Below, piece after piece: positions 2,286-14,968 of a stretch of DNA of 14,968 nucleotides. Numbering within the stretch: the stretch's first letter is position 1; each line of letters starts with the position of its first letter. Source of the DNA: a virus (taxonomy: Duplodnaviria; Heunggongvirae; Uroviricota; Caudoviricetes); the IMG/VR virus record IMGVR_UViG_2529292834_000017. One strand, given 5' to 3'. The notes under the pieces are model-generated. The model searched no databases. It was not told the DNA's origin and saw only the letters and a program-made list of their open reading frames with translations. The position numbers were made by a program, and so were the translations under genes.

Positions 2286-2318
2286 TTCAATAGATTTATA
2301 ATTTCTTTCAATAGATTC
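2286..2318 (+). promoter_or_regulatory. Direct repeat TTCAATAGATT x2 (22 bp apart) overlapping a weak sigma70-like promoter upstream of alpA
   Basis: TTCAATAGATT at 2286-2296 and 2308-2318. Possible -35 TTTCAA (2306-2311) and -10 TAGAAA (2328-2333) with 16-bp spacing, about 65 bp upstream of the alpA ATG. Promoter assignment is inference. Confidence 0.3.
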
Positions 2319-2397
2319 TAGTCTTAATAGAAATACTGTATGGGCAACCACTAAACTTTAAGTAACTTCATGAGCTATCAGAGAGGTTACTAGAGAC

Positions 2398-2616: not shown

Positions 2617-3047
2617 TGGAAAAGAAAAACCGCCCATTACAGGCGGCTAATTCAGATATTCGCGTATCTGATATTACGCCCCTTACAAAATCCCTTCAAG
2701 CACCAAAGCGCACACCGAAAAAGCATCGTGCCCGAGTCTATATGCTGCGTACTGGTATAGAGGGATGGACAGAAAATGACATTCTTCGCTACTGCCGTCT
2801 GTCTTCTGGTCGTAACTATGCAACAGAGTTAGAACGCCAGCTTGGAATCACTCTGGAGCGTATCGACGAAAAGAATCCTGATGGTATCGGAACACACCTT
2901 CGCTACCGTTTCTCCTGCCGTGGTGATGTTCTGAAAGTGATCACTCATGTTAACCATCTTGCGAACATAAATGATCACAACGGACTTTCTCAGCAGGAAA
3001 TTGCCGACATTCTGAAACTCTACCCGGACGCGTTTAACGCCGCCTAA
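2616..3047 (+). CDS. Hypothetical protein with basic N-terminus, coupled to alpA
   Basis: 143-aa ORF. Its ATG overlaps the alpA stop (TGATG) and is preceded by GGAAGGTGG. N-terminal basic stretch KRTPKKHRARVYMLRTG. No recognisable catalytic motif. Confidence 0.7.
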   Translation: MEKKNRPLQAANSDIRVSDITPLTKSLQAPKRTPKKHRARVYMLRTGIEGWTENDILRYCRLSSGRNYATELERQLGITLERIDEKNPDGIGTHLRYRFSCRGDVLKVITHVNHLANINDHNGLSQQEIADILKLYPDAFNAA

Positions 3048-3059
3048 CGGAGACTAAAA

Positions 3060-3893
3060 ATGAACATCGAAAAAAGCAGATTAATTTCTGAGGCCGCCCC
3101 TCATCTGAACGCCTCTCTGGGCACAATTAACGGTAATGAATTTGCCGCAATTGTCCCGGTTATTTCTGGTCATATAGGCGGGCGTGAAACCAATATTGTT
3201 AGCGCAAAAGCGTTACACAAAGCGTTGGGCGTGGGAAAAGACTTCTCTACATGGATCACTGATCGCATCTCTGAATATGACTTCACCATTGGGCACGATT
3301 ACTCAGTCCATAAAACAATTTCCCCAAATTTGGGGAAAAGCCCGAATGACGCGGCTTACAGCAAGATTAAGCAGTCTGGCAGACCCGGCAAAGACTATCT
3401 GTTAAGTGTCGGAATGGCGAAAGAACTGGCAATGATCGAACGCAATGATCAGGGTCGCGCTATCCGCCGTTATTTCATCCAGTGCGAGAAAGAATTACAG
3501 CGTAGCGTGCCTGAAATCGCCGCCCGCTATCGTCGCCAGCTAAAAGCCCGTATCAGTGCCGCAAACAACTTCAAGCCAATGTGCGATGCGCTGAATATGG
3601 CCCGTGCCGAGATGGGGAAAACGACGCAGCAACACCACTACACAAACGAGAGCAATATGATTTCTCGTATCGTTCTTGGTGGGCTAACTGCTAAGCAGTG
3701 GGCGCGGATAAATGGCTATTCTGGCGAACCTCGCGACCATATGAACGCAGAACAGCTTGAGCACCTCTCATATCTCGAAAGCACCAATATCACGTTAATT
3801 GATATGGGCATGGAATATGAGCAGCGCAAAGGAGAACTCACCCGCCTGTCGCAACGCTGGCTCGCCAAGCGTCTGGAGGCGGTCCATGTTTAA
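3060..3893 (+). CDS. Phage antirepressor-like protein (AntA/AntB-type N-terminal domain)
   Basis: 277-aa ORF with SD ACGGAG upstream. N-terminal segment IVSAKALHKALGVGKDFSTWITDRISEYDFTIGHDY fits the AntA-type pattern (A..LH..LGV...FS.WI..RI..Y.F.EG.D) as I remember it. Product call is moderate; coding call is good. Confidence 0.75.
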   Translation: MNIEKSRLISEAAPHLNASLGTINGNEFAAIVPVISGHIGGRETNIVSAKALHKALGVGKDFSTWITDRISEYDFTIGHDYSVHKTISPNLGKSPNDAAYSKIKQSGRPGKDYLLSVGMAKELAMIERNDQGRAIRRYFIQCEKELQRSVPEIAARYRRQLKARISAANNFKPMCDALNMARAEMGKTTQQHHYTNESNMISRIVLGGLTAKQWARINGYSGEPRDHMNAEQLEHLSYLESTNITLIDMGMEYEQRKGELTRLSQRWLAKRLEAVHV

Positions 3894-4068
3894 GCCGACA
3901 GGAACACCACAACCTCAAAAACGCTACAAAGATGCCCACGGAGCACTCGTTACTGTCGAAAGCGTGTCTCACAACCGAGTGACGTTTTATCGCGACGGGT
4001 ATCAATCGCCATGCGTACAACCGCTGGCACGTTTCATGAAGGAGTTCGCGGAGGTTAACAAATGCTAA
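3886..4068 (+). CDS. Small hypothetical protein (60 aa), coupled to upstream gene
   Basis: ATG at 3886 overlaps the stop of the upstream gene (ATGTTTAA), the same overlap style as the other junctions in this operon. Protein [60 protein letters not shown]. The ORF track extends to 3799 but that would overlap the upstream gene by 95 nt. Confidence 0.5.
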   Translation: MFKPTGTPQPQKRYKDAHGALVTVESVSHNRVTFYRDGYQSPCVQPLARFMKEFAEVNKC

Positions 4069-5129
4069 CCGCCCAGAAGAAGATATTTTCACTGGCTGGT
4101 ATGTCGCCAAAATCCAGCAATATGACAGCAAAGTCAGACATTAATACAGCAGATACAAGCAAAGTTTATCATTTGCTGGTGGTAGGAGCGGATGCCTTAA
4201 CTATGTCAGAAATTACGGTCGATGGTGTTAGCGTTGAGAAGGTCAGCGGCTATGCCAGAGAATTTCTGGTCGTAGATGGCTTTCTCTGCTCGTGTAGTGA
4301 CTCCACAAAAACCTTCGTCCACGCGCGTGACGTTAACGAAATGAGCGCGATGTACTGTGCTTCTGGTTCTTCCAATAGTGAGTTTTCGGAGTCCATAAAA
4401 AAGAGCTTGCCGTTATGCGGCAACACGGTTTATGGTTATAAGGCACCTCATAAAACGGGTGCCGGGATTGGCGTCCTAAAAATTCTGAAGGCGACATATG
4501 ACGCGCCAAGCGTCTTTTTTTATGTCGTAGGTCTGACTCACCCATTTTTTGGGCGTTGGTGTATAATCCAGCGCCTTTGTCAATCAATGGTGGCTCAGGC
4601 GGGGGCTTCTTCGGAAGCGCCGGTATCCTTCAGAGCCGGTTACGCCAACCCTGTCTGGGCTACCACCAGCGAAATTGGCGTTTCCGGTGGTAGCGTAACC
4701 TGCTATCTGAAGGAGGCTGCCACATGCTGGCTACTACCCCTACCCAAAAAACGCAATTTATCTGGATTATCGCCGCAGTTCGCCGCGATTGCCCGACAAT
4801 TACCGCCAAAATTCATCATATTGCTGCCGAGTCTGAACGCGATGCTCGCCGTTCTCTGGTGCGCGATCACGTCTGCTTTTTTGCTGGTCGTATCCGCATG
4901 GAGGTGGCACATGATTAAAACCTACGATGTGCATATGGATCCCCTCGAACGCACAAGCCAGATCATCACACTGACAGAAGTGATTAACGACATTCTGGTG
5001 AGCAACTCTCCCTCACGAGACGAAAGACTGAAGGCGTTACTCGCGATATTGGATCTCGCCGTTCGTGACGTTCATTTCCTGCTGGAAGGTGGCGAAATGC
5101 CAGTAAAAACGGGGGCAACCAATGAATAA
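4062..5129 (+). CDS. Questionable 355-aa ORF, probably not one gene
   Basis: The first ~145 codons (4062 to ~4500) look protein-like. The ORF then reads through a hairpin+U7 terminator (4500-4521), a perfect TATAAT (4562-4567), a UUCG-tetraloop hairpin and a 9-bp hairpin, and the SD/ATG of a better ORF in another frame (4724). Its last 72 codons coincide with the separate gene 4911-5129. An annotation pipeline could still call it as one hypothetical protein. Confidence 0.3.
4381..4403 (+). promoter_or_regulatory. Copy 1 of conserved promoter-proximal motif AGTTTT-N2-GAGTCCATAAAAAA (putative early-operon promoter element)
   Basis: GAGTCCATAAAAAA at 4389-4402 is identical to 10237-10250 (14/14), with matching AGTTTT upstream in both. 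Followed by a perfect palindrome TTGCCG-N5-CGGCAA (4406-4422) and, about 100 nt downstream, a hairpin terminator. Confidence 0.35.
4500..4521 (+). terminator. Intrinsic terminator-like hairpin in the immunity leader (timm-like)
   Basis: GACGC-GCCAA-GCGTC stem-loop followed by TTTTTTT. Immediately preceded by TCTGAAGG (4484-4491), a seqA-like target complementary to 4628-4635. Confidence 0.45.
4530..4567 (+). promoter_or_regulatory. Sigma70-type promoter with perfect -10 TATAAT (4562-4567), weak -35
   Basis: TGTATAAT at 4560-4567. No good -35 hexamer at 17 bp, so activity is uncertain. Confidence 0.35.
4568..4700 (+). ncRNA. Candidate P4 CI / P1 C4-type antisense immunity RNA region (boundaries approximate)
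   Basis: Non-coding leader with a GCTTC-TTCG-GAAGC tetraloop hairpin (4605-4618) and a 9-bp perfect stem GCTACCACC/GGTGGTAGC (4659-4667 with 4686-4694). TCCTTCAGA at 4627-4635 is perfectly complementary to TCTGAAGGA at 4706-4714, which overlaps the SD (AGGAGG 4711-4716) of the Icd-like gene, and 8/8 complementary to 4484-4491. Family membership would need a covariance-model search. Confidence 0.4.
4724..4918 (+). CDS. Icd/Kil-like small protein (cell-division-inhibitor family of P1 icd / P4 kil position)
   Basis: 64-aa ORF with SD AAGGAGG (4706-4712). Motif [10 protein letters not shown]...[25 protein letters not shown] resembles Icd-like proteins as I remember them. Its stop overlaps the next ATG (ATGATTAA). 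Sits immediately downstream of the antisense-RNA-like leader, as in P1 immI and P4 immunity regions. Confidence 0.55.
   Translation: MLATTPTQKTQFIWIIAAVRRDCPTITAKIHHIAAESERDARRSLVRDHVCFFAGRIRMEVAHD
4911..5129 (+). CDS. Small hypothetical protein (72 aa), translationally coupled
   Basis: ATG at 4911 preceded by GGAGGTG; overlaps the upstream stop and the downstream start (ATGAATAA at 5122). Protein [32 protein letters not shown]... Confidence 0.5.
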   Translation: MIKTYDVHMDPLERTSQIITLTEVINDILVSNSPSRDERLKALLAILDLAVRDVHFLLEGGEMPVKTGATNE

Positions 5130-5316
5130 CTCAATTAATACCCCTCGCCTTACGTCCGCACTTCAATTAATCGAGCAAGCAGCGGCTGTCCTGGTTGCTG
5201 TCAGTCTTTCGGCTGAAGAAATGGACGCTGCTGATGTCGTGGATGCGATTAAAGCGTGCTCATCTTTGGTTAACGATGCCCGTGCAGAGCTGGTAATTCT
5301 TGGTGGTGAAAAATGA
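5122..5316 (+). CDS. Small acidic hypothetical protein (64 aa)
   Basis: SD GGGGGC upstream. Start overlaps the previous stop and the stop overlaps the next start (ATGA at 5313). Acidic, helical-looking sequence. Confidence 0.65.
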   Translation: MNNSINTPRLTSALQLIEQAAAVLVAVSLSAEEMDAADVVDAIKACSSLVNDARAELVILGGEK

Positions 5317-5576
5317 ATATCAACTTAATTTATCGTCATCCGTGTGAGCTGGAAATTGAATCATTGCTGGGGCGCGAAGAGCCATATCCAGACACATTCA
5401 CTCCCGCAGATTGCGCGACTGAACGGCTTACCAGAGCGCGCACAGGTCTGGTTCATGTGATGAATGAGATTATTCCCTCGGTGGGAGGGGAACAGGCGAC
5501 AGTAATCAATAGCTGGCTACAAAAAGTTACCTCCCTGATAGATATCAGTTTAATCGATGTGGAGAGTGCGAAATGA
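5313..5576 (+). CDS. Small hypothetical protein (87 aa)
   Basis: SD GGTGGTGA upstream; ATGA overlaps at both ends (5313 and 5573). Confidence 0.65.
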   Translation: MNINLIYRHPCELEIESLLGREEPYPDTFTPADCATERLTRARTGLVHVMNEIIPSVGGEQATVINSWLQKVTSLIDISLIDVESAK

Positions 5577-5794
5577 CCAACATCCAGCTCATTGAAGCGC
5601 AATGTCGCATCGAACAGGTTCAGACTGTTTTAGGGTTCTGGCTTGAAGGGGCCAGCCCAAGCAACAGAGACAAGTTAATGATTGGCGCGGTTATGTCACT
5701 GCTCAATGGCGTACCAGAAGCTATTCAGGAAGCGGACGAATTGTTGGGCAAATATGAGTTACAGAATCATTCAGGCGAGGCGAAACATGAATAA
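5573..5794 (+). CDS. Small hypothetical protein (73 aa)
   Basis: SD GAGAGTG upstream; the stop overlaps the next gene start (ATGAATAA at 5787). Confidence 0.65.
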   Translation: MTNIQLIEAQCRIEQVQTVLGFWLEGASPSNRDKLMIGAVMSLLNGVPEAIQEADELLGKYELQNHSGEAKHE

Positions 5795-6389
5795 TTTCTT
5801 AACTTTCCATGCAGAAGCAACGCCTGGCGGCGTAAACATCATGTACCGCAGCAACGATGGCATGACAGAACGCGTTGAGGCCGTCTCATATATTGATGCC
5901 GTAAATCGTCTGGATGCCGGGGATTATGACGATAAACCAGATGAAGGTATGTCAATACATCTCGCTATTGCCGATGGCGGCAACCAGGGATATTTCGATT
6001 ACACATCACAGCATAACGTCATTATGTGGAGATGGCTGATCGCAACAGTATTCATGCTGGAAATGAGAGAGGAAAACGGCACCGTCAGCATTATTGATGA
6101 CAGTGGCAATCATTCCGTGGTTTCTGTTTATTCCAATGGCATCGTCGCCATGCCGCTGTATCCAGTAGCAGAGCGCCTCGCTATGGCAAACAACATTGAG
6201 GGCGCAATGATCGAGAAATATGGTGTTGATGTCGGAACAAAGAATGCCATCATTTTTTACAGCAACATGTTCGATGTCGAACAGGGAACACTCACTTCGT
6301 TTGGGCGAGAAGTGCTTGCCGATCTTCACAACAGCTTTATTGCCGAACTAAACGAAAACGGCATCCCAGAAGCACCAGTGACGCACTAA
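5787..6389 (+). CDS. Hypothetical protein (200 aa from ATG 5787)
   Basis: ATG at 5787 with GAGGCG upstream, coupled to the previous gene. The ORF track start at 5682 would overlap the upstream gene in another frame. No recognisable motif. Confidence 0.65.
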   Translation: MNNFLTFHAEATPGGVNIMYRSNDGMTERVEAVSYIDAVNRLDAGDYDDKPDEGMSIHLAIADGGNQGYFDYTSQHNVIMWRWLIATVFMLEMREENGTVSIIDDSGNHSVVSVYSNGIVAMPLYPVAERLAMANNIEGAMIEKYGVDVGTKNAIIFYSNMFDVEQGTLTSFGREVLADLHNSFIAELNENGIPEAPVTH

Positions 6390-6401
6390 ACGGGGGCCAG
6401 A

Positions 6402-8753
6402 ATGCGAAACATTGATCTTATCCGTCAGGTTATCAGTGCGTCTGAAAACAACTGGCCTCATGTGCTGGACTGCCTGAACATAAATGTCCCTGACTCTCCG
6501 CGCCGTCATGCTCCCTGCCCTGCATGTGGGGGCAAAGATCGATTCCGGTTCGATGACAACGGGCGCGGTAGCTTCATCTGTAATCAGTGCGGCGCTGGTG
6601 ATGGGCTGGATTTAATTAAACGCGTAAATAACTGCGACACAACAGAGGCGGCGCTTCTTGCCGCTGATGTTCTGGGTATTGATTACCGGACAACGGAAAC
6701 ACCAGAAGCCACCAGCCAGAAACGGGAACAACTGGAAACCGAGCGCCAGCGACGCGAACAGGAGCGCCTGAAAAGGGCAGAGAAGGACGAACAACAAAGA
6801 CGGGATACGTTTTCCCGTCAGTTTGATGACATGCGCAGAAAGGCTGTAAACGGCAAATCTGATTATCTGGTTGCGAAAGGGGTAGGTGATTTTACATTCC
6901 CTGTGTTGCCCGATGGATCTCTGTTGCTGGCGCTGGTGGATAAATCCGGCGCAGTCACAGCAGCACAGACTATTACCTCACATGGTGAAAAAAGACTCCT
7001 GACAGGTTCAGCAAAGCGAGGGGCATATCACGCCATAAACGCACAGAAACGACCTCACAGCATCATAATTGCTGAGGGGGTGGCTACCGCCCTGTCGTGC
7101 CATTTAATTCGCCCTGACGCAATGACAGTGGCAGCAATCGACGCTGGCAACCTGTTGCCAGTAGCGGAAGTCATGCGCAGAACATATCCACAGGCACAAA
7201 TCATCATTGCCGCAGATAACGATCACCAGCAAGGAAACTCCGAAAGTGGAGGGATCAACACGGGGAAAGATGCCGCAGAGAGGGCCGCTATTTCCGTAGC
7301 TGGCTGGGTGTCTCTGCCACCGACTGACTATAAAGCCGACTGGAACGACTATCACCAACAACACGGGCTGGCGGCAGCCACAGCAGCATTTAAAGATTCG
7401 ATGTACCAGCCACGGGGGAAAGGGGCGCAGGTGAAAAATCACAAACAGTCAGTCGGGGCGCTGAATGAGATCAGTTCTGGCGAGGTGTTAAGCGATGATG
7501 AAATTGCTGTCCTCGAAGAAATCAACCGGACGTTTACGCATGTCACCATCGGCGGGAAACACAAGGTGGTGTCGCTAAAGCCTTCTCAAACCGGCGGTGT
7601 ATCGCACGTTTTCGAGGATTTATCACAATTTCAGCATTATTTTCATCATAAACCGAGAGTCGCCAGAAAGCTGGCGGGATCGGCGTGGCTGTCATGGAGT
7701 GGGAAGAACTACAAGCCAGGAGGCGTAGGATTTTATCCAGTACCAGACAAATGCCCTGACGATGTTTTTAATCTGTATGAGGGGCTGGCACTGGAACCAA
7801 TTGAAGGAGATTGCACGGTATACCTTAATCACCTGTTGCAGGTTGTCTGTGCCGGTAATGAAGAGGCATACCAATATCTTATCCAGTGGATGGCGCACAT
7901 TATCCAAAAGCCTGATGAAAAACCGTCCGTGGCAATCGTGATGAAATCTGTCCCGGGCACAGGGAAAGGCACAACGGTTAAACCGCTGCTGCAAATACTG
8001 GGGCAGTACGCCGCCCACATTAACGGGGCGGGACATATTTCAGGGCGCTTCAATTCAATACTTGCTAACAAGCTACTGGTATTTGCTGACGAAGTGACGA
8101 TCCACAAGCCGTCTGAAGCTGACAGACTTAAAGCGATTATTAGCGAACCGACGTTTAACCTTGAGCGCAAGGGAATTGATGCTGAACCAATGCCGAATTT
8201 TGCCCGGTTGATATTTGCCAGTAACAGCACACAGGTATTACAGGCAGGGATAAGAGAGCGCCGCTATCTCGTGCTTGAGCCATCTCCTGAAAAAGCACAG
8301 AGCCGGGAGTATTTTGATCGGCTGTACAGTTGGCTTAATGATGGCGGTGCCGCAAAGTTGCTTTGGCATCTTAAAGGGGTGGATCTCTCAGGTTTTGACC
8401 CTCAACGAGCGCCACAGACCGATGCCTTACGTGAAGAAATCTTGCTGGGGCTGTCTGGCGTTGAATTGTTTCTTTATGGCGAGCTAATCAATGAACCTCC
8501 GTTTAATGGCGAAGTCCGTTTGTTTGCAAAGGATATGGTTAGTCGATTTGTAGCGTGGTCGCTTGAGCGTGGGGAAAAGCTTAAAGAACCAGCTGCCAGA
8601 TCACTACTGGGTAAATCACTTGCACAAATGGGGCTGGTGAAGCATGGAAGACCAGACCGAGGGAATGGCGTGTTCTACGAACTACCAGAGGTCGGAGTTC
8701 TACAGGCTGCGTTTGCCCGTCTGATCGGTATGGGGGGGTATGATGTTTTTTAA
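6402..8753 (+). CDS. P4 alpha-type bifunctional DNA primase / SF3-like helicase (zinc ribbon + Toprim + D5/P4-family NTPase)
   Basis: 783-aa ORF with SD GGGGGC. N-terminal zinc ribbon CPACGGKDRFRFDDNGRGSFICNQCGAGDGLDLI (CxxC...CxxC), near-diagnostic of P4-alpha-like primases. Toprim-like IIIAEGVATAL and AADNDHQ (DxD). P-loop-like SVPGTGKGTT, Walker B-like LLVFADEV, sensor-like LIFASNS. Size matches P4 alpha (777 aa). Confidence 0.93.
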   Translation: MRNIDLIRQVISASENNWPHVLDCLNINVPDSPRRHAPCPACGGKDRFRFDDNGRGSFICNQCGAGDGLDLIKRVNNCDTTEAALLAADVLGIDYRTTETPEATSQKREQLETERQRREQERLKRAEKDEQQRRDTFSRQFDDMRRKAVNGKSDYLVAKGVGDFTFPVLPDGSLLLALVDKSGAVTAAQTITSHGEKRLLTGSAKRGAYHAINAQKRPHSIIIAEGVATALSCHLIRPDAMTVAAIDAGNLLPVAEVMRRTYPQAQIIIAADNDHQQGNSESGGINTGKDAAERAAISVAGWVSLPPTDYKADWNDYHQQHGLAAATAAFKDSMYQPRGKGAQVKNHKQSVGALNEISSGEVLSDDEIAVLEEINRTFTHVTIGGKHKVVSLKPSQTGGVSHVFEDLSQFQHYFHHKPRVARKLAGSAWLSWSGKNYKPGGVGFYPVPDKCPDDVFNLYEGLALEPIEGDCTVYLNHLLQVVCAGNEEAYQYLIQWMAHIIQKPDEKPSVAIVMKSVPGTGKGTTVKPLLQILGQYAAHINGAGHISGRFNSILANKLLVFADEVTIHKPSEADRLKAIISEPTFNLERKGIDAEPMPNFARLIFASNSTQVLQAGIRERRYLVLEPSPEKAQSREYFDRLYSWLNDGGAAKLLWHLKGVDLSGFDPQRAPQTDALREEILLGLSGVELFLYGELINEPPFNGEVRLFAKDMVSRFVAWSLERGEKLKEPAARSLLGKSLAQMGLVKHGRPDRGNGVFYELPEVGVLQAAFARLIGMGGYDVF

Positions 8754-8782
8754 TATAGTCTTTTTACAAGAAGATCGTTTTT

Positions 8783-8795
8783 ACCTGTACCACCT
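8783..8795 (-). repeat. Single iteron-like copy (reverse complement AGGTGGTACAGGT) 30 bp after the primase stop
   Basis: ACCTGTACCACCT on the + strand matches 13/14 of the GGTGGTACAGGTGG repeat clustered at 9809-9911. Confidence 0.45.
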
Positions 8796-8844
8796 ATACC
8801 ATTAACAAACGCATTTCTTCTGGCTGGCTGAGAGGGAACAACCA

Positions 8845-9075
8845 ATGATGAGCACACCATTTTACAAAGTGCGCCAGTTAGCTTCTTCCTCTGGCTGGCA
8901 GCTACGGTTTGAGGGGCGTTCAGACTGGCTACCCATTGCGGCATGGGCGAATGTTGAAATGTGTATTGACGGCGATACCGTTGAAATCATTATTCCCTGC
9001 GTGGCAAGTCGGGACGGCTGTATAGAGCCAACAGATATGGCAGCAGAAATCAGAGAGGTAAAACATGAACAATAA
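8845..9075 (+). CDS. Hypothetical protein (76 aa)
   Basis: SD GAGAGGGAA before the ATG at 8845. Overlaps the next gene by 11 nt. No recognisable motif. Confidence 0.55.
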   Translation: MMSTPFYKVRQLASSSGWQLRFEGRSDWLPIAAWANVEMCIDGDTVEIIIPCVASRDGCIEPTDMAAEIREVKHEQ

Positions 9076-9802
9076 CTATTGCATACTGCAGGGAATGACC
9101 AGAACGGAGCGCGAAGAATTAAAAAGTTTCGCTACACAGTGCGGGAATGCTGGCGACATCCAAAGTCTGGAACGCACTTTAATTATGATTGCGCACTGGA
9201 TGCGCCAGGGGCAAAGAGTTTCATTTACTGAATATGCCAGCCAGTGGACAGAGGCACAGCGCGAACGGAGCGACGGTAATCACTCAACACCCGAAATGGC
9301 GAAGCAATGGCCTTTCAGTGGTAAACGCTGTATCAGTCCCGGTGGTTCAGATTATTACCCTGCTGGTGTGGGAGATGAGCCATGTTGTGACGAGACTGAA
9401 ATCCGCCACGCAGTGACAGTAATTACCGCTGAATACCCACAATTTAACCTTGACGGACTGGCGCTCCACAACCGGAATGCGGACTGGGAAAACCCGCTTG
9501 ATAACCCGTCATTTATCGTATCGGCGAAAAGCTGCCTGAGATGGATCAGAGACAACGGGATGAGTAATGCCCAGATTGAGAGCTTCCCGCAGGATAACCC
9601 CACATCTGACACGTTGAAGCATGAAGTGGAGCGATATAACCAGATAAACCACCAGCACAGTGATCACCCGCACTATATCCCCAACGGAGCATTTATTGCG
9701 GCGATGGTGGCAAGCGGCTACAAGGTTAAGCCAGCGGGAAGAATGAACGCATTTTTCAATATTTCAAAAAAGGGATTATGTGCTGCTATGGGTAAAAATT
9801 AA
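9065..9802 (+). CDS. Hypothetical protein (245 aa), Cys/His-containing
   Basis: SD GAGAGG before the ATG at 9065. Contains CCDETEIRH and HQHSDHPHY segments. No recognisable family. Confidence 0.65.
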   Translation: MNNNYCILQGMTRTEREELKSFATQCGNAGDIQSLERTLIMIAHWMRQGQRVSFTEYASQWTEAQRERSDGNHSTPEMAKQWPFSGKRCISPGGSDYYPAGVGDEPCCDETEIRHAVTVITAEYPQFNLDGLALHNRNADWENPLDNPSFIVSAKSCLRWIRDNGMSNAQIESFPQDNPTSDTLKHEVERYNQINHQHSDHPHYIPNGAFIAAMVASGYKVKPAGRMNAFFNISKKGLCAAMGKN

Positions 9803-9808
9803 ATAAAT

Positions 9809-9911
9809 GGTACAGGTCTGTACAGGTGGGGAGAGGTCATTTTTACCCACCTGTACCACCTGCAGGCCGCGCCACACAAGGGTTTGTGACATGGTGGTAC
9901 AGGTGGTACAG
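9809..9911. repeat. Iteron cluster: at least 3 copies of GGTGGTACAGGTGG in both orientations, including an 11-bp perfect inverted repeat; candidate replication origin / crr-like site
   Basis: GGTACAGGT at 9809-9817; GTACAGGTGGG at 9820-9830 is perfectly inverted to CCCACCTGTAC at 9846-9856 (15-nt spacer); GGTGGTACAGGTGGTACAG at 9893-9911. Non-coding position downstream of the primase-helicase. The origin role is inference by analogy to P4 alpha binding iterons in ori/crr. Confidence 0.5.
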
Positions 9912-10228
9912 CAAAAACAGCGATTTTCTTTATAAGGTATGTTTTGCTCATCTGGCAGACGGAGGTATTCGCTGCGGTTTGGCACATAGCCCAGAACAGC
10001 AAAGAGTTTTACGAGACTTTTGTAAAATCCAGTGTACAAGGGCGTGACGTTTTTGAAGGTGAGCACTACGAAATTTTCGTAGTTCAAAAAATAGCCTCTG
10101 AGATGTTGTTATGCCTGTTCAGCAAACCATCCGCATAGCTGATCGCGAATCAAATTACCAATGGAGCCAGAAGCAAGGGCAGAACTGGAAAGCGCCTGCC
10201 GTGAAGAGTAATGCGACTCCATAAATAT

Positions 10229-10251
10229 AGTTTTTAGAGTCCATAAAAAAA
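10229..10251 (+). promoter_or_regulatory. Copy 2 of conserved motif AGTTTT-N2-GAGTCCATAAAAAA (putative promoter of the cargo operon)
   Basis: 14/14 identity of 10237-10250 with 4389-4402, plus matching upstream AGTTTT. A degenerate third copy GACTCCATAAA is at 10215-10225. Followed within 30 nt by a strong hairpin terminator. Confidence 0.35.
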
Positions 10252-10276
10252 CTGTCAAAACCTGACATACAGAACG

Positions 10277-10309
10277 ATGCCACCAGCTACTGAACGGTGG
10301 CATTTTTTT
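10277..10309 (+). terminator. Rho-independent terminator / attenuator in the leader of the cargo operon
   Basis: 8-bp stem ATGCCACC / GGTGGCAT (10277-10284 with 10296-10303), 11-nt loop, then a run of 6 T. The ORF-track ATG at 10277 lies inside the stem, so the 100-aa ORF 10277-10579 is an over-extension. Confidence 0.55.
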
Positions 10310-10405
10310 GTGCTATTTGTTTCATATTTTGCAATCACAATGATGAATGTTGCGTTTTATGAAACTATAATGACTGTTGTTTTATACAGTTCTAAGGGGG
10401 GCGTT

Positions 10406-10579
10406 ATGGCTATTTCAGTAAAGCCAGTATTGATAAGTGAGAAGCAAATGGAAGCGATAAAGAAAATTCAGGAGGAGCAGCGTAAAAAATCAGAGGTAGG
10501 AGTTGCGCCAACGATCCACGAAATTGCTCGGGGATTAATGGATAAGGCGCTGGCTTACACTTTAACTGGACGTGGGTAA
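10406..10579 (+). CDS. Small hypothetical protein (57 aa), first gene of the cargo operon
   Basis: Strong SD AAGGGGGG 6 nt before the ATG at 10406. Protein MAISVKPVLISEKQMEAIKKIQEEQRKKSEVGVAPTIHEIARGLMDKALAYTLTGRG, charged and helical-looking. Possible small regulator or partner protein; inference only. Confidence 0.6.
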   Translation: MAISVKPVLISEKQMEAIKKIQEEQRKKSEVGVAPTIHEIARGLMDKALAYTLTGRG

Positions 10580-10583
10580 ATTT

Positions 10584-11927
10584 ATGGCTACGTGGCAACA
10601 GGGTATTAATTCTGGTGGTTTTCTGGCTGGCATCGGTGCGCAAAATGAGAATGCGCCAAAGGCAAGCGACATTAACGCAACGCTTGGTCTGATCCGCGAA
10701 AACAATGAACTGGCTCGCTCAGGTGCAAATAACGTTGCTCTGACAGGTCTTCGTGGTCTGGCTGGAGTTGCTGACATTTATAAGCAGCAGCAACAGCAGG
10801 AACGTAAAGCGGCATTCCAGAAAGGTTATGCAGATGCTTATGCGTCCGGTGACAGGGAGCAGATGCGTAATCTTATTACAGCATTCCCAGAAGAGTTTGA
10901 GGAAGTCCGTAAAGGGATGAGTTATGTCGATGATGCTCAAAGGGATGATTATGGCAATCTGGCGCTCAAAGCACAGGTAGCCTCATCGCTTGGTCAGGGC
11001 GCATTTGGCAGGTTCATGATGGATAATGAGCAGGAGATGCGTCGTTTAGGTATCCCTCCAGAAACTATTGCTGAAATGCAGGTTAATGACCCGCAGGGCT
11101 TCCAGCATTTCGCAGGTAATCTGGCGCTGTTTTCTCTCGGTCATGAGAAGTATTTCGATATCAAAGATCAAATGGAAGGTCGTCGACTTGAGCAAGGGCG
11201 ACTGGATGAAAGTATGCGTCAGGCTGACATGGAGAACGCGAGAGGATGGGCAAATATCCAGAACGCTCAACTAGACAGGGCTCAGCGAGCACAAATTCAC
11301 TCAGATGAGATGGGATTGAAGCTAATGGAGCTGGGGCAAAAAGGTAAGCCGTCAGCAGACTTAATTAAGGGATTAAATTCTGACATTACCAATTTTGGCA
11401 AAAATTATAACTCTGTCAGAGCGGCGGCAAACTCTCTGCAAGCCCTTAGCAAGGTAAATACTGGCGCTGCCCAACTTGGGATTATCTTCAACTACATGAA
11501 ATCTCTTGACCCGCAGTCAGTCGTTCGTGAAGGCGAACAGGTTCAGGTAATGCGGTCTGATGGCATATGGGGACAAATCAAAGGATACATAGACCAGCTT
11601 AATGCTGGAAACGGCCTGTCGCAGGAGGCAAAGGATAACATTGTTAACGCCGCAAAAATCAACGCCAATGCTATGGGGCAGCAGTTTAACCAGCAGGTTG
11701 ACGAGTATCTCGATACATATGGAGAAACTATTCCTCAGGGGCTAAGAAAAAGCCTTGAAAGAAGGAAAGCGAAGCTATTTGACGATGTTTCCGGGCAGCC
11801 TACATCACAGGCTGGCACTGGACAGGCAAAAGCGGCAACCGGAGGAATATCAGAAGGCGCAACGGCAACCAACCCTAAAACTGGTCAGAAAATCATTTAC
11901 AGGAACGGAAAATGGCAGCAAATGTAA
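10584..11927 (+). CDS. Hypothetical coiled-coil-rich protein (~448 aa; 451 aa if GTG 10572 is used) with Gly-rich N-terminus
   Basis: Long ORF with coding-like composition. N-terminal Gly/Ala/Asn-rich segment (GINSGGFLAGIGAQNENAPK), then a Q/E/R-rich probable coiled coil (QADMENARGWANIQNAQLDRAQRAQIH). No Walker, nuclease or other catalytic motif seen. Start ambiguous between GTG 10572 (overlapping the upstream stop) and ATG 10584. Confidence 0.8.
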   Translation: MATWQQGINSGGFLAGIGAQNENAPKASDINATLGLIRENNELARSGANNVALTGLRGLAGVADIYKQQQQQERKAAFQKGYADAYASGDREQMRNLITAFPEEFEEVRKGMSYVDDAQRDDYGNLALKAQVASSLGQGAFGRFMMDNEQEMRRLGIPPETIAEMQVNDPQGFQHFAGNLALFSLGHEKYFDIKDQMEGRRLEQGRLDESMRQADMENARGWANIQNAQLDRAQRAQIHSDEMGLKLMELGQKGKPSADLIKGLNSDITNFGKNYNSVRAAANSLQALSKVNTGAAQLGIIFNYMKSLDPQSVVREGEQVQVMRSDGIWGQIKGYIDQLNAGNGLSQEAKDNIVNAAKINANAMGQQFNQQVDEYLDTYGETIPQGLRKSLERRKAKLFDDVSGQPTSQAGTGQAKAATGGISEGATATNPKTGQKIIYRNGKWQQM

Positions 11928-14029
11928 TCTTACCGGAAGGTTTTGTGCTCGATGAACAACCTGATAACTCACAGTTTCCTGATAGTTCACAGCTTCCTGA
12001 TGGTTTTGTGCTTGATGCCCAACCAGAACAGCAGCAATCACCTTTGGTTTCACCAGAGGAAAATTCCAGACAGGAAAATGTTGTTAATAATGCTAACGGT
12101 TTCGACCGTTTTATGTATGGCGTTCTCAGTGGATTGATGGATGTTGGTAAAGGTGTTGGCCTGTTTCAGGATATGACACCAGAAGAGCAAGCCGCAATTC
12201 AGTCTCTACAGCAGAAGTTAGCGGCAAAACCATCAACCGCACAAGATGTTGGTGAGTTCGTTGGACAAGCAGCGCCATTTGTTAGTGGTGGTGGGATTAT
12301 TTCTCAGGTTCCCAAAGGGGCGGCAAGACTGGCTGCCGCCGCAGGGCTTGGTGCTGGAGAAGGGGCTATTGTAGCCAATGGAACAAATAGCGATGTTGCT
12401 TCCGGCGCTGCTATTGGCGCTGTGGCTGGCCCTGTAGCCGAACTTGCTGGCCCTGCAATTAATAAAATAGCTGGGAAATTAACCAAGAAGAATGTTTCTT
12501 CGATTCCAGATATTGAGGGGATTACTCCTGCCGAAGAGAAAATTCGTAAGTTATCTGCACAAGGCAACCCAAATCTTGCCTCTTCGCTTGAAGGGCTAGA
12601 TCTAAAACCTCAGAAAGAAATTGTTGAGGCTGCAAATAGGCTTCATGTTGATTCAGTTCTTCCTTCTCATTTATCAGGAAATGAGCAATACCAAGCTGTA
12701 GAGCAAGCCCTAAAGTCACGGACAGGATCAGCGTTAAAAGCTCAAGAAGATAAAGCAATAAGCGAATTAGCCTCTAGTGCTGGCAAGATAATCGATGATG
12801 TTGCTGGTGCGCCAGATGCGTTAGCTATGAGCGAAAAATATATTTATCAGATAAATAGTAGAATGGAAGCACTAAAAAACCGTAGTGATCAGTTATATAA
12901 ACGTGTTGATTCCGCTCTATCACCAAGAACAAAAGTCGAAGCAAATAACACAAGCACTATGCTGGAAAAAATCGCTGATGATTTAGGAGGGTGGGATAAT
13001 CTTGACCCAATAGAAAAGCGAGTTTTTACAGCAATAAACCCCGGCCCAGATAGCATCCTAACGTATGCAAATTTAAACAGGCAAAGGCGTTTAGTTGGTG
13101 ATGCCCTAAATAAAAAGCAGGGGCCATACAAAGATGCTGATAAAGAAGCGCTATCAAGACTATATGGAGCTTTAGCTGAAGACCAAAAATCTGTCTTATC
13201 CAATACTGGATACTTGCGAGATTTCGAAGTCGCACAACGCCTTGTAGCTATGAGAAAAAACTTAGAAAGGCAAATGGTAAATCTTCGCGGGAAAACACTT
13301 AATGGGGATATAGCGTATAAAGTAACGAATTCTCTTCAATCTATGGCAAAAGGTGATGCGAGAGGGTTTCGTGAGATTATGCAAAATACTCCATCAAGAA
13401 CATTGCGAAGGGAGCTAGTAGGAACAGCATTAAGAGATATGCTTTCCTCTGGGAAGCGTGGGGCCGACTTTAATCCATCTGGCTTCGCAGATTGGTGGCA
13501 AAACTTGCAACACAGTGGACAGCTAAAGACTTTGGCTGAACATTTGCCAAAAGAAACAATGAGCGGACTATATGATGTATACAAAGTTGCCAGAGCAATA
13601 AAAAATGCTAAAGCGCATGAAATATCTACTGGTAAGCTGAATGAGTTTGTAAACAGATTTAATCGGGTAACAGCTCCATACGAACTAGCAGCAAAACACA
13701 TTCAAAAAATAGGCACGATGGTAGGCGCTCATTTTGGATCGCTTGGAGCCATTGCTGGGGCTGATATTGGAGCAAGATTGGCGAGTAAAGCTCGATTAGC
13801 TGGTGGAGCAGGGGCGGCTGATGCTGCGGATAAATTAATTGCCTCGCCAGCCTTCCAGAGCGCAGTAAAAAATCTACACGGAAAAGCGCCTGGGCACATT
13901 GTTGATTCACGTATCAGGCGCTCCCCTCAATGGAAGAGTTTTTTTAACTCTCTTCCTGAACAGGAAAAACGGACCATCGCCAGACTGGGCATCATTACTT
14001 GGCTATCTAATGATCCAGATAATGACTAG
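11912..14029 (+). CDS. Hypothetical 705-aa protein with N-terminal tandem repeat and Gly/Ala-rich amphipathic segments
   Basis: ATG at 11912 with AGGAA 6 nt upstream; overlaps the end of the upstream gene by 16 nt. N-terminus has a tandem repeat LPEGFVLDEQP / LPDGFVLDAQP. Gly/Ala-rich stretches at residues ~125-180 (AARLAAAAGLGAGEGAIVANG...AIGAVAGPVAELAGPAINKIAGKL) and near the C-terminus (GSLGAIAGADIGARLASKARLAGGAGAADAADKLIASPA). No enzymatic motif recognised. GC content drops sharply after ~12500. Confidence 0.85.
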   Translation: MAANVILPEGFVLDEQPDNSQFPDSSQLPDGFVLDAQPEQQQSPLVSPEENSRQENVVNNANGFDRFMYGVLSGLMDVGKGVGLFQDMTPEEQAAIQSLQQKLAAKPSTAQDVGEFVGQAAPFVSGGGIISQVPKGAARLAAAAGLGAGEGAIVANGTNSDVASGAAIGAVAGPVAELAGPAINKIAGKLTKKNVSSIPDIEGITPAEEKIRKLSAQGNPNLASSLEGLDLKPQKEIVEAANRLHVDSVLPSHLSGNEQYQAVEQALKSRTGSALKAQEDKAISELASSAGKIIDDVAGAPDALAMSEKYIYQINSRMEALKNRSDQLYKRVDSALSPRTKVEANNTSTMLEKIADDLGGWDNLDPIEKRVFTAINPGPDSILTYANLNRQRRLVGDALNKKQGPYKDADKEALSRLYGALAEDQKSVLSNTGYLRDFEVAQRLVAMRKNLERQMVNLRGKTLNGDIAYKVTNSLQSMAKGDARGFREIMQNTPSRTLRRELVGTALRDMLSSGKRGADFNPSGFADWWQNLQHSGQLKTLAEHLPKETMSGLYDVYKVARAIKNAKAHEISTGKLNEFVNRFNRVTAPYELAAKHIQKIGTMVGAHFGSLGAIAGADIGARLASKARLAGGAGAADAADKLIASPAFQSAVKNLHGKAPGHIVDSRIRRSPQWKSFFNSLPEQEKRTIARLGIITWLSNDPDND

Positions 14030-14048
14030 TGAATGGCCACGGATGGCC

Positions 14049-14474
14049 TCAATCTTTATTCTTTGAAATAGAGTCATTGATCTTTTCGAAACACCAATGA
14101 AATCCACAAAAGAGAGCTACACCAATATAACAATACAAAACTATCAACCACCTTTCAGTGTCCGAAGGGTAAAAAACATCAATTACATAAGCAACACCAA
14201 TTGGTATTAATGCTAGTAATAACATCGACACAGGACGTACAAACTTCTGAACTATATCAATTTTATAGAACCACAAGGCGGTATGTTTAATGATATAAGT
14301 AAAGATGGCTGCGCCAATAATGGCAAAAAACACCATCGATAAAGTCGGGTATAACTTTGCGACAATTAAACCCAACAAAATAATTATAACTGCCTGCCCC
14401 CTCACACCAACCCTCCCTTTAGCTTTGTTTAGAATGGCAATCATCATATATCCAAGACATGGCATTTGGTACAT
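14049..14474 (-). CDS. Small integral membrane protein (141 aa, ~4 predicted TM helices), low GC
   Basis: Minus-strand ORF convergent with the 705-aa gene. Hydrophobic stretches VIIILLGLIVAKLYPTLSMVFFAIIGAAIFTYII, VSMLLLALIPIGVAYVIDVF and LIVLYCYIGVALFCGF. Very AT-rich codon usage. No clear SD at any of the candidate starts (14474, 14465, 14447). Confidence 0.65.
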   Translation of the reverse strand: MYQMPCLGYMMIAILNKAKGRVGVRGQAVIIILLGLIVAKLYPTLSMVFFAIIGAAIFTYIIKHTALWFYKIDIVQKFVRPVSMLLLALIPIGVAYVIDVFYPSDTERWLIVLYCYIGVALFCGFHWCFEKINDSISKNKD

Positions 14475-14598
14475 AGCTTGGGTCGGGATTTCAAATCCGC
14501 TCCCCGTTGATGGGGCCGTTACAGTACGCGCATATCCGCTTTATGTGAAACAGGAAGATTTTTCTGATATCACTGCCACAGCAAAACACCAATTTCGT

Positions 14599-14668
14599 GA
14601 CCAGTACGCGCGCGAGGTGTATCAGTTGCAAAATTTTTTGCAGCTGTGTCCGACCAGTACGCACGCGA
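14599..14668. repeat. Two 17-bp direct repeats GACCAGTACGC(G/A)CGCGA flanking a 24-bp AT-centred palindrome
   Basis: GACCAGTACGCGCGCGA at 14599-14615 and GACCAGTACGCACGCGA at 14652-14668 (16/17). Between them CAGTTGCAAAA-TT-TTTTGCAGCTG (14623-14646), 11-bp arms with 1 mismatch. A partial third copy CAGTACGCGCA is at 14522-14532. Confidence 0.5.
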
Positions 14669-14721
14669 TGGCGGGGAGCACCATAAAACTGTTCTCTACA
14701 TAAGACAGAGTGGTGGTGATG

Positions 14722-14968
<247 letters not shown>

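What the first reader, a model, noticed from the sequence alone, without database searches (positions are those of the whole stretch)
11927..12030. Tandem N-terminal peptide repeat (LPEGFVLDEQP / LPDGFVLDAQP) in the 705-aa protein
Two near-identical 11-residue units about 20 residues apart at the very N-terminus. They are encoded by near-identical DNA (GGTTTTGTGCTCGATGAACAACC / GGTTTTGTGCTTGATGCCCAACC), which implies a recent duplication or selection. Short N-terminal repeats of this kind are often docking epitopes for a partner or receptor.
Basis: seen in the sequence. Interest (0 to 1): 0.45.

Follow-up and report, generated by a model that had tools for sequence, protein, structure and literature searches.

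The report
Paired docking motifs linking phage ejection proteins
The N-terminal repeat is real and old, and it appears to be a two-copy plug on a phage DNA-injection protein that fits a conserved hairpin at the tail end of the protein encoded just upstream, which gives a testable explanation of how two parts of the phage DNA-delivery channel join.

Summary
LPEGFVLD (11930-11953) and LPDGFVLD (11993-12016) open a 705-aa P22-gp16-type ejection protein. An 18-nt tandem duplication lies between them.

The two units are not a recent duplication. Codon identity is at chance level. The doublet heads 87 of 104 N-terminal matches among 50%-identity cluster representatives from many otherwise unrelated proteins.

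The main result is a second motif. The upstream gp20-type protein ends in EGATATNPKTGQKIIYRNGKWQQM (11853-11924).
- Selecting loci by the head alone finds this tail in 42 of 45 unique junctions.
- Selecting by the tail alone finds a two-copy head in 61 of 67.
- Seven tail types and seven head types never cross-pair among 114 typed junctions.
- In another set of phages, including cultured Pan3, the polarity is reversed: the upstream protein ends in ...PPGFVLD and the downstream one starts with the hairpin, usually twice.

Published genetics show that gp16 and gp20 must be matched.

I infer that the repeat is a bivalent docking peptide for the gp20 tail, possibly setting a 2:1 (12:6) stoichiometry. 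No co-fold or binding test could be run.

The genes sit on an integrase/primase island found in about 10% of E. coli genomes.

The parts
11912..14029 (+). 705-aa gp16-type ('DNA transfer') ejection protein. Residues 1-63 are predicted disordered, 106-204 disordered and Gly/Ala-rich, and 230-705 form a confident all-alpha body.
   Evidence: PHROG 6704 at E 1.4e-174 and PHROG 770 'DNA transfer protein' at 1.2e-50. Homologues sit downstream of gp20 in P22-like phages. AlphaFold2 model.
11930..11962 (+). GFxLD motif copy 1 (LPEGFVLDEQP; core LPEGFVLD at 11930-11953).
   Evidence: Conserved as copy 1 of an N-terminal doublet in homologues and in 104 representatives.
11960..12001 (+). 18-nt tandem duplication (PDNSQF/PDSSQL) that lengthens the spacer between the two motif copies from the usual spacing of about 15 residues to 21.
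   Evidence: TRF finds period 18, 2.3 copies, 87% matches. Kapi1, E212 and IMG/VR relatives have one PDNSQ unit. Spacing ranges from 12 to 28 residues across representatives.
11993..12025 (+). GFxLD motif copy 2 (LPDGFVLDAQP).
11853..11927 (+). C-terminal 'W-hairpin' tail of the upstream gp20-type protein, EGATATNPKTGQKIIYRNGKWQQM plus the stop codon. This is the proposed partner of the repeat.
   Evidence: It co-occurs with the GFxLD doublet in 42 of 45 head-selected junctions and 61 of 67 tail-selected junctions. There are no cross-type junctions. The reversed polarity is seen in other phages.
10584..11927 (+). gp20-type ejection protein, 447 aa from the ATG at 10584 (the mechanical ORF list starts at the GTG at 10572).
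   Evidence: Pfam Inj_translocase at 2.5e-73. 54% identity to P22 gp20 over residues 1-212. DNA homology to P22-like phages begins exactly at 10583/10584.
11912..11927 (+). 16-nt gene overlap. The ATG of the 705-aa ORF is made from the last base of the Lys codon plus the TG of the tail's invariant Trp codon (TGG at 11913-11915). This geometry suggests translational coupling.
   Evidence: Sequence read directly. The same 16-nt overlap occurs in unrelated metagenomic phages L159 and L160. Other junctions overlap by 1, 10, 19 or 22 nt.

Best explanation
The tandem repeat is a bivalent short linear docking motif, two copies of LPxGFxLD on a flexible N-terminal leader. It belongs to the gp16-type ejection protein, which forms the inner-membrane part of the P22-type DNA-delivery channel.

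Each copy is proposed to bind the conserved C-terminal hairpin (EGxTATNPxTGxxxxxxxGxW) of the gp20-type protein, which forms the periplasmic tube and is encoded immediately upstream. The pair would act as a plug and socket that joins tube to membrane channel and makes gp20 and gp16 a matched set.

One hairpin per gp20 and two plugs per gp16 would fit the reported 12 gp20 : about 6 gp16. The overlapping genes probably couple their translation.

What is shown: the motifs, their conservation, their strict pairing in both polarities, and the predicted disorder of the leader. What is inferred: direct binding, the stoichiometry and the timing.
For: 1. Across 80 IMG/VR loci found through gp20, every gp20 tail type goes with one gp16 head type. 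The pattern extends to Xenorhabdus, Erwinia, Symbiopectobacterium, APSE-1 and a Vibrio phage. A table of 7 tail types by 7 head types over 341 unique adjacent ORF pairs has no cross-type junction among 114 typed junctions.
2. Loci selected by the head alone: 42 of 45 unique junctions have the hairpin at the end of the upstream ORF (37 by a strict pattern, 5 as obvious variants).
3. Loci selected by the tail alone: of 67 junctions with a C-terminal hairpin and a readable downstream ORF, 61 have two GF motifs, 2 have three and 4 have one by the strict pattern.
4. The pairing holds in metagenomic phages whose proteins have no Pfam hit, and with gene overlaps of 1, 10, 16, 19 and 22 nt.
5. Reversed polarity: in 21 of 23 loci with a readable upstream ORF, a protein that starts with the hairpin, usually two in tandem, follows a protein ending in ...PPGFVLD. 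The background rate of such ORF ends is 33 of 4862. Cultured cyanophage Pan3 shows the same arrangement between two proteins annotated as ejection proteins.
6. A natural hybrid, P0106/L155, took a different head together with the matching tail. Its leftover internal copy has drifted to PPNGFALD.
7. Published genetics: P22 carrying Sf6 gene 16 alone or gene 20 alone is dead, while P22 carrying both is viable (PMC10883804). P22 and Sf6 have different junction types.
8. A preprint reports a gp20 dodecamer and about six gp16, and says the gp20 C-terminal 36 residues reposition in AlphaFold3 models when gp16 residues 1-205 are added (10.64898/2026.09.03.749273).
9. In the AlphaFold2 model, residues 1-63 have pLDDT below 50 and are coil.
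10. Tails with W-Q go with LP[ED]GF heads (21 vs 5) and tails with W-V with LPPGF heads (15 vs 2); Fisher p = 1e-5, without correction for phylogeny.
Against: - No direct binding or co-folding test could be run. The structure tool predicts single chains only, and no natural fusion of the two motifs exists in the data.
- The two motifs are encoded next to each other, so part of the co-occurrence is plain linkage.
- Copy number is not always two. Of 104 N-terminal heads, 12 have three copies, 3 have one, 1 has four and 1 has seven. That weakens a strict 12:6 reading.
- Some head types, such as the P22 type, are not obvious doublets.
- Three near-C-terminal hairpins (L282, L283, L329) and two N-terminal ones (L318, L330) lack a GF partner next to them. 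In four of these the neighbouring ORF looks, by eye only, like a cell-wall peptidase; this was not tested against any profile. In L173 the hairpin lies 206 residues before the stop codon.
- Neither motif occurs in any solved structure.
- The SieA-escape mutations that link gp16 and gp20 in P22 lie elsewhere, in the C-terminal regions of both proteins.
Confidence: 0.62

Rival explanations
1. Both motifs bind a common third component, for example the portal barrel, another ejection protein, peptidoglycan or a host inner-membrane protein. They co-occur because both proteins must be brought to the same place, not because they touch each other.
For: Co-occurrence data cannot separate direct binding from a shared partner. 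A few hairpins lie next to an ORF with no GF motif, so the hairpin may have other partners.
Against: Swapping which protein carries which motif, with one GF type opposite one hairpin type in both polarities, is what a complementary pair predicts. Fine-scale co-variation between tail and head variants exists. Head types vary within one host species, and the same type spans very different hosts, which argues against a host partner.
Confidence: 0.15
2. The N-terminal repeat is an encapsidation signal, like the T4 capsid-targeting sequence. It would bring the protein into procapsids through scaffold, portal or coat protein.
For: It is a short N-terminal peptide on an internal virion protein and is predicted disordered. 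How P22 ejection proteins enter procapsids is unknown.
Against: Sf6 gp16, which has a different head type, is still incorporated into P22 virions made with P22 gp20 and P22 capsid proteins. Those virions are non-infectious, so head type does not govern incorporation, and the defect appears after assembly (PMC10883804). The head co-varies with the gp20 tail. Co-variation with capsid genes was not examined.
Confidence: 0.1
3. The pairing is hitch-hiking. The two motifs are 75 nt apart across an overlapping gene junction and are inherited together. The overlap constrains part of the sequence: Trp-Gln in the tail and Met-Ala in the head are the same bases.
For: The head's ATG is embedded in the tail's Trp codon at most junctions. 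Adjacent segments are rarely separated by recombination.
Against: Mosaic breakpoints occur within about 25 codons on both sides of the junction, yet none falls between tail and head. Both motifs are conserved at the amino-acid level well beyond the overlap, in lineages where the rest of both proteins is unrecognisable. The pairing persists with 1-nt overlaps and in the opposite polarity.
Confidence: 0.06
4. The repeat results from a recent slippage duplication and has no specific function.
For: The two units are 81% identical over 32 nt, and a true 18-nt tandem duplication lies between them.
Against: Codon identity is at chance level. The doublet is present in 87 of 104 N-terminal matches among 50%-identity cluster representatives.
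Confidence: 0.02

Closest known systems
P22 gp20-gp16 functional pair (Leavitt et al., mBio 2024, PMC10883804; Yu et al., 2026 preprint, 10.64898/2026.09.03.749273)
   Same: The two window genes are the positional and profile homologues of genes 20 and 16. In P22, gp20 forms a dodecameric periplasmic tube whose C-terminal plinth is proposed to template a gp16 inner-membrane channel. The two proteins must come from the same phage type to work.
   Different: Those papers do not name a tail or head motif as the compatibility determinant. P22 itself uses a different junction type (...SKSGIQFTVE with MKVTANGKTFTFPDG). The 705-aa protein is not detectably similar to P22 gp16 by BLASTP.
T7 ejectosome gp14/gp15/gp16 (review PMC8954989)
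   Same: Three consecutive internal proteins build an outer-membrane pore, a periplasmic tunnel and an inner-membrane complex. The domain organisation is mosaic.
   Different: No sequence similarity was found here. The review does not describe terminal docking peptides shared between consecutive proteins.
T4 capsid-targeting sequence on internal proteins (from my own knowledge, not checked against a paper here)
   Same: A short N-terminal peptide on a protein that is packaged in the head and injected.
   Different: The T4 sequence acts in procapsid targeting and is cleaved by the prohead protease. Here the motif is doubled, pairs with a motif on the neighbouring protein, and published data put the gp16/gp20 mismatch defect after assembly.
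IHF/HU beta-arm (the ...RNPKTGE... segment)
   Same: There is a local match of 9-13 residues to the start of the hairpin motif. It hints at a beta-hairpin conformation.
   Different: E-values are 0.015 to 1 against the PDB sequences. This is not homology, and DNA binding is not implied.
P4-like satellites and PICIs (integrase-AlpA-primase islands)
   Same: The window carries a tyrosine integrase, an AlpA-type HTH, AntA, Ash and a P4-alpha-like primase, in an E. coli chromosomal island.
   Different: No sid/psu/delta-type or other capsid or packaging-redirection genes were detected. The only virion genes are ejection proteins of a P22-like podophage.

Membership tests
P22-type gp16 'DNA transfer' ejection protein | Significant match to the family profiles | tested here: met
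   phrog_6704 at E 1.4e-174 over residues 1-701; phrog_770 'DNA transfer protein' at 1.2e-50 over residues 113-654.
P22-type gp16 'DNA transfer' ejection protein | Encoded immediately downstream of gene 20 in the order 14-7-20-16 of a P22-like virion module | tested here: met
   Close relatives sit in that position in Kapi1, SEN22, E212, L097 and L098. In the window gp20 is directly upstream, but genes 14 and 7 are absent.
P22-type gp16 'DNA transfer' ejection protein | Pairwise similarity to P22 gp16 itself | tested here: not met
   Best BLASTP E-value is 0.49. This is expected, because published gp16 types are only 22-26% identical to each other. Membership rests on profile matches and synteny.
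P22-type gp16 'DNA transfer' ejection protein | Packaged in the virion, ejected, and forms the inner-membrane channel | not testable with these tools
   Needs virion proteomics and infection assays.
P22 gp20 (Pfam PF16928, Inj_translocase) | Pfam match above the gathering threshold, and similarity to P22 gp20 | tested here: met
   246.8 bits against a cut-off of 29.7. 54% identity over residues 1-212, E 2e-73. The C-terminal half is divergent.
W-hairpin / GFxLD connector module (defined here) | Two or more LPxGFxLD motifs within about 60 residues of the N-terminus | tested here: met
   Residues 7-14 and 28-35.
W-hairpin / GFxLD connector module (defined here) | The upstream adjacent protein ends in TATNPxTGx7GxW | tested here: met
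   gp20 ends in EGATATNPKTGQKIIYRNGKWQQM.
W-hairpin / GFxLD connector module (defined here) | Physical binding between the two motifs | not testable with these tools
   Only single-chain prediction is offered, and no natural fusion was found.
T4-like capsid-targeting sequence | Required for incorporation into procapsids and removed by the prohead protease | not tested
   There is indirect evidence against. Sf6 gp16 is incorporated into P22 particles whatever the gp20 type (PMC10883804).
WW domain (split between the two proteins) | A head-plus-tail chimera matches the Pfam WW profile | tested here: not met
   No WW hit at E <= 10 for three chimeras. The resemblance of LPxGF to the LPxGW of WW domains came from memory only.
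P4-like satellite / PICI | Integrase, AlpA-type regulator and primase-replicase in a chromosomal island | tested here: met
P4-like satellite / PICI | Genes that redirect the helper phage's capsid size or packaging (sid/psu/delta, cpm, ppi, rpp, small terminase) | tested here: not met
   No such Pfam or PHROG hit on any ORF scanned.
P4-like satellite / PICI | Induction and packaging by a helper phage | not testable with these tools
   Needs experiments.
Known anti-phage defence system | Match to a PADLOC model | tested here: not met
   No hits for eight island proteins.

The most novel reading that the evidence does not exclude
The W-hairpin and the GFxLD motif form a general, interchangeable plug-and-socket that joins the second and third ejection proteins of many short-tailed phages. 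It can sit in either polarity. The downstream protein always carries two copies, so each of its subunits clamps two subunits of the upstream protein, which would explain a 12:6 symmetry step. It would also be the main determinant of gp20/gp16 compatibility. E. coli integrase-primase islands then carry a matched gp20+gp16 pair precisely because only matched pairs work, which would let the island fit its own DNA-delivery channel onto a helper phage's particles.
Probability: 0.3. Interest if true: 0.8.

Novelty: new variant of a known kind. Interest (0 to 1): 0.66.

Why it matters
How the periplasmic tube (gp20) hands over to the inner-membrane channel (gp16) is an open question in P22-type infection. 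So is the reason the two proteins must be co-adapted.

A conserved pair of terminal peptides offers a concrete answer. The peptides are short enough to synthesise. They swap as a unit in nature and occur in both polarities across many phage lineages. The idea can be tested with peptide binding, co-folding and tail/head swaps in P22, Sf6 or Kapi1.

The result also gives annotators a way to recognise the second and third ejection proteins in metagenomic podophages, where nothing else is recognisable.

Finally, it suggests why a widespread family of E. coli islands carries exactly genes 20 and 16.

Tried and rejected
- Recent duplication or gene conversion of the GFVLD units: rejected. Codon identity is 5 of 9 against 3.1 +/- 1.4 expected, and the doublet is ancient.
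- Split WW domain (head as strand 1, tail as strands 2-3): Pfam WW does not hit head+tail chimeras, so I dropped it.
- Homology of the hairpin to the IHF/HU arm: only 9-13 residues match, with E 0.015 to 1. I keep it only as a hint of beta structure.
- Solved structures: profiles of head and tail give no significant hit. The whole protein gives none by sequence or by fold (Foldseek against the PDB, best E 0.65).
- Natural single-chain fusions of the two motifs, to allow single-chain folding: none in any fetched protein or locus.
- Function of other head-bearing proteins: Pfam and PHROGs say almost nothing for seven representatives.
- gp7 in the island: absent. The 100-aa ORF at 10277-10579 is unrelated to gp7.
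- SieA: the membrane protein at 14049-14474 is not similar to P22 SieA. It has only a sub-threshold Bax1-I hit.
- Defence system: no PADLOC hits.
- Literature: a search for the motif strings found nothing relevant. A search for satellites carrying ejection proteins found nothing.
Full report
**Observation.** The + strand ORF 11912-14029 encodes a 705-aa protein that starts MAANVILPEGFVLDEQPDNSQFPDSSQLPDGFVLDAQPEQQQ.
- The two 11-residue units lie at 11930-11962 and 11993-12025.
- The repeat finder gives a 32-nt direct repeat at 81% identity, 63 nt apart.
- Between the units, Tandem Repeats Finder reports an 18-nt tandem duplication (11960-12001, 2.3 copies, 87% matches).

The DNA similarity carries no extra information beyond the protein. 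Of nine positions with the same residue, five use the same codon, against 3.1 +/- 1.4 expected from the window's own codon usage.

**What the protein is.** The upstream ORF (ATG at 10584, ending at 11927) matches Pfam Inj_translocase, the P22 gp20 family, at E 2.5e-73. It is 54% identical to P22 gp20 over its first 212 residues.

The 705-aa protein matches PHROG 6704 (1.4e-174) and PHROG 770 'DNA transfer protein' (1.2e-50). It has no significant BLASTP match to P22 gp16 itself. That agrees with the published 22-26% identity between gp16 types.

Close relatives sit directly after gene 20 in P22-like phages, in the order 14-7-20-16: Kapi1, SEN22, E212 and contigs L097 and L098.

AlphaFold2 with a 63-sequence alignment gives three regions:
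- a coil with pLDDT below 50 for residues 1-63;
- a second disordered, Gly/Ala-rich stretch at 106-204;
- a confident all-alpha body from about residue 230 to 705.

No solved structure resembles the protein by sequence or by fold.

**The repeat in homologues.** Among 120 homologues, the first 30-60 residues form a replaceable module with at least seven forms. The main ones are:
- the LPxGFVLD doublet;
- MKVTANGKTFTFPDG (the P22 type);
- MAKAWKDVIASPQYQ (the Sf6 type);
- MAGPWEKYQ...GPWTKYQ;
- M..DREQLMTALRNADAAGDT.

Wherever the GFVLD form occurs there are two copies, about 15 residues apart. Only the window's variant and one relative found in a complete P22-like phage contig (P0002/L098) have the extra six-residue spacer unit.

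A profile of the head was searched against 1.84 billion cluster representatives and found 254 proteins at E <= 1e-3. Of the best 150, 104 carry the motif at the extreme N-terminus of proteins of 40 to 3200 residues that mostly have no Pfam or PHROG annotation.
- Copy number is two in 87, three in 12, one in 3, four in 1 and seven in 1.
- Spacing ranges from 12 to 28 residues, with a mode of 15-16.

The duplication is therefore old and maintained by selection. The window's 21-residue spacing lies within the tolerated range.

**The partner motif.** In 80 IMG/VR loci recovered through gp20, the last residues of gp20 predict the gp16 head without exception:
- ...NPKTGQK[IL]IYRNGQWQPM goes with the GFVLD doublet;
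- ...SKSGIQFTVE goes with MKVTANGKTF;
- ...SSLWGD goes with MAKAWKDV.

The flanks differ on both sides of this junction, so recombination has reshuffled everything around it.

The rule holds in Xenorhabdus, Erwinia and Symbiopectobacterium genomes, in APSE-1 and in a Vibrio phage. A table of seven tail types against seven head types over 341 unique adjacent ORF pairs has 114 typed junctions and no cross-type pair. The few pattern mismatches are spelling variants.

A natural hybrid, P0106/L155, replaced the first GFVLD copy with another head and carries that head's tail on gp20. Its leftover internal copy has drifted to PPNGFALD.

**Independent selection of loci.** I scanned IMG/VR with a DNA pattern for the N-terminal doublet alone. 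Of 45 unique junctions:
- 37 have N-P-x-[TS]-G-x(5-8)-G-x-W at the end of the upstream ORF;
- 5 more have obvious variants;
- 1 is a frameshift artefact;
- 2 lack an adjacent tail.

I then scanned with a pattern for the hairpin alone. Seventy-two unique sites lie within 32 residues of a stop codon, and 67 of them have a readable downstream ORF. Of those 67, 61 begin with two GF motifs, 2 with three and 4 with one by a strict pattern, and most of the four have a degenerate second copy.

Two metagenomic phages whose proteins have no detectable family show the same tail, the same head and the same 16-nt overlap as the window.

In most junctions the head's ATG is built from the tail's invariant Trp codon. 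The pairing also occurs with overlaps of 1, 10, 19 and 22 nt. It is therefore not a by-product of overlapping coding.

**Reversed polarity.** The hairpin scan also returned 52 sites where the hairpin is not C-terminal. In 33 unique loci it sits at the extreme N-terminus of a protein of roughly 300 to 2100 residues, usually as two tandem hairpins such as MALETATNPETGERVALVNGQWRPITQSATNKEGVKAYLVDDKW.

In 21 of the 23 such loci with an upstream ORF of at least 90 residues, that upstream protein ends in a single GFxLD-type motif, for example ...PPLPPGFELD...PPPPPGFVLD or ...PPSGFVPDKK. Only 33 of 4862 ORF ends in these loci have such an ending.

The cultured cyanophage Pan3 shows this arrangement between two proteins that its authors annotated as ejection proteins. 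Pan3_12 ends in ...APAPPPGFVMDN, and Pan3_13 begins MQEGATATNPQTGERVVLRGGQWVP.

The same two motifs therefore face each other across the junction of the second and third ejection proteins in either orientation. In both orientations the downstream protein usually carries two copies and the upstream protein one.

**Link to experiments.**
- Leavitt and colleagues replaced P22 ejection genes with those of Sf6. Gene 16 alone or gene 20 alone gave dead particles that still contained Sf6 gp16, whereas both together gave viable phage. They concluded that gp16 and gp20 must interact (PMC10883804).
- P22 and Sf6 have different junction types. This fits my reading but does not isolate the termini.
- Yu and colleagues report a dodecameric gp20 tube ending in a plinth, about six gp16 forming the inner-membrane part, and a flexible gp20 C-terminal segment (residues 436-471). 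In their AlphaFold3 models that segment changes position when gp16 residues 1-205 are included.

**Mechanism proposed.** The repeat is a bivalent docking peptide on a disordered leader. Each LPxGFxLD unit binds one gp20 C-terminal hairpin. The pair ties the membrane channel to the periplasmic tube and makes genes 20 and 16 a matched set.

Two plugs per gp16 and one socket per gp20 would fit 12:6. The gene overlap probably couples their synthesis.

The co-occurrence, the conservation, the polarity swap and the predicted disorder are shown. Direct contact, stoichiometry and timing are inferred. I put the direct-docking reading at about 0.6 and the 2:1 reading at about 0.3.

Points against:
- no binding or co-folding test was possible;
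- no natural fusion of the two motifs exists in the data;
- copy number is sometimes 1, 3, 4 or 7;
- the P22-type head is not an obvious doublet;
- five hairpins lack a GF partner next to them, and in four of these the neighbouring ORF looks by eye like a cell-wall peptidase, which I did not test against a profile;
- the tail/head sub-type co-variation (Fisher p = 1e-5) is not corrected for phylogeny.

**Rivals.**
- A shared third partner cannot be excluded, but it predicts neither the polarity swap nor the fine co-variation.
- An encapsidation signal is unlikely, because Sf6 gp16 is packaged into P22 particles whatever the gp20 type.
- Pure hitch-hiking is unlikely, given breakpoints close on both sides of the junction, conservation in otherwise unrecognisable proteins, and both polarities.
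- Recent slippage is excluded for the GFVLD units.

**Context.** The window is an E. coli chromosomal island between yicC and dinD. It carries an integrase, an AlpA-type HTH, AntA, DUF4222, Ash and a P4-alpha-like primase, followed by genes 20 and 16. No tRNA gene lies in the window.
- Homology to P22-like phages begins exactly at the gene 20 start codon (10584) and ends at 13961. There is no gene 7.
- Sixty-four complete genomes carry at least 80% of the window at about 99.9% identity.
- The island-specific segment upstream of gene 20 occurs in 522 of 5426 genomes.
- Sister islands with the same backbone carry a different matched pair, the ...SSLWGD / MAKAWKDV type. In O26 strain RM10386 they also carry gp14- and gp7-like genes.
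- None of the island proteins tested matches a known defence model. No capsid or packaging-redirection genes were found.

I found no paper describing such islands or the motif pair in the library searched.

**Verdict.** The finding is real. The motif pair appears to be an undescribed, widespread connector within a known machine, so I class it as a new variant of a known kind.

Noticed in passing
window 1-14731; L002, L058-L060, L337, L338: The window is an integrase-AlpA-AntA-Ash-primase island whose only virion genes are P22-type ejection genes. Its island-specific segment (9803-10583) occurs in 522 of 5426 complete E. coli genomes. It is found at two or more integration sites (yicC/dinD and tRNA-Thr near proA). 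Sister islands carry a different gp20/gp16 allele, and one (O26 RM10386) also has gp14- and gp7-like genes. It may be a satellite of P22-like phages that supplies its own injection proteins. I found no paper on this.
   Followed up: partly
window 10583-13961: DNA homology to P22-like phages starts exactly at the gene 20 start codon and stops about 70 nt before the end of the 705-aa ORF. This looks like a precise two-gene cassette with no gene 7. The 705-aa protein is itself mosaic: its first ~157 residues are ~90% identical in DNA to Kapi1, and the rest is closest to proteins of Pluralibacter, Klebsiella and Serratia.
   Followed up: partly
homologues P0007-P0018, P0055-P0075; L122-L125: Other N-terminal head types are also doublets of a short motif: GPWEKYQ...GPWTKYQ, APWENYQ...APWLKYK (with gp20 tail ...GGDPSDKNNWSK) and SWEERRKQF...SWEEKRKQF (with tail ...YYKLKRGGK). 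Two copies on the downstream protein may therefore be a general rule.
   Followed up: partly
L244-L336 (IMG/VR), L340 (phage Pan3, 4142-7826): The hairpin motif occurs as one or two tandem copies at the N-terminus of proteins of roughly 300 to 2100 residues whose upstream neighbour ends in a single ...PPGFVLD. This is the reverse of the window's arrangement.
   Followed up: yes
L282, L283, L329, L330, L318: A few hairpin motifs have no GFxLD motif on the neighbouring protein. In four of these loci the adjacent ORF looks by eye like a cell-wall peptidase (for example ...EGDHVHMEPKG). I did not test this against any profile.
   Followed up: no
window 14049-14474 (-): A 141-aa multi-pass membrane protein lies immediately downstream of the gp16-type gene on the opposite strand. 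This is the position of sieA in P22. It is not similar to P22 SieA (BLASTP E = 2) and has only a sub-threshold Bax1-I hit (23.8 bits against a cut-off of 34.1). Sister islands have unrelated membrane proteins in the same place.
   Followed up: partly
window 14732-14968: The last ~237 nt are the end of an IS100 (IS21-family) element next to istB in other genomes. Matches of the island in other E. coli genomes stop at 14731.
   Followed up: yes
P0003, P0004, P0043: Some E. coli records hold fusion ORFs that look like deletion derivatives of the island: the integrase Arm domain or the gp20 N-terminus joined to the C-terminal part of the 705-aa protein.
   Followed up: no
55 unique tail/head pairs compiled from the fetched loci (listed, counted): Within the module, tails reading G-x-W-Q go with heads reading LP[ED]GF (21 vs 5). 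Tails reading G-x-W-V go with LPPGF (15 vs 2). Fisher p = 1e-5, with no control for phylogeny.
   Followed up: partly
L265, L272, L297, L317: Another head, M..V.LPDGT.v.fP.GTs.eeI (related to the P22-type head), follows small proteins of about 200 residues that begin with the hairpin motif. This suggests a wider set of terminal connector peptides among internal virion proteins.
   Followed up: no
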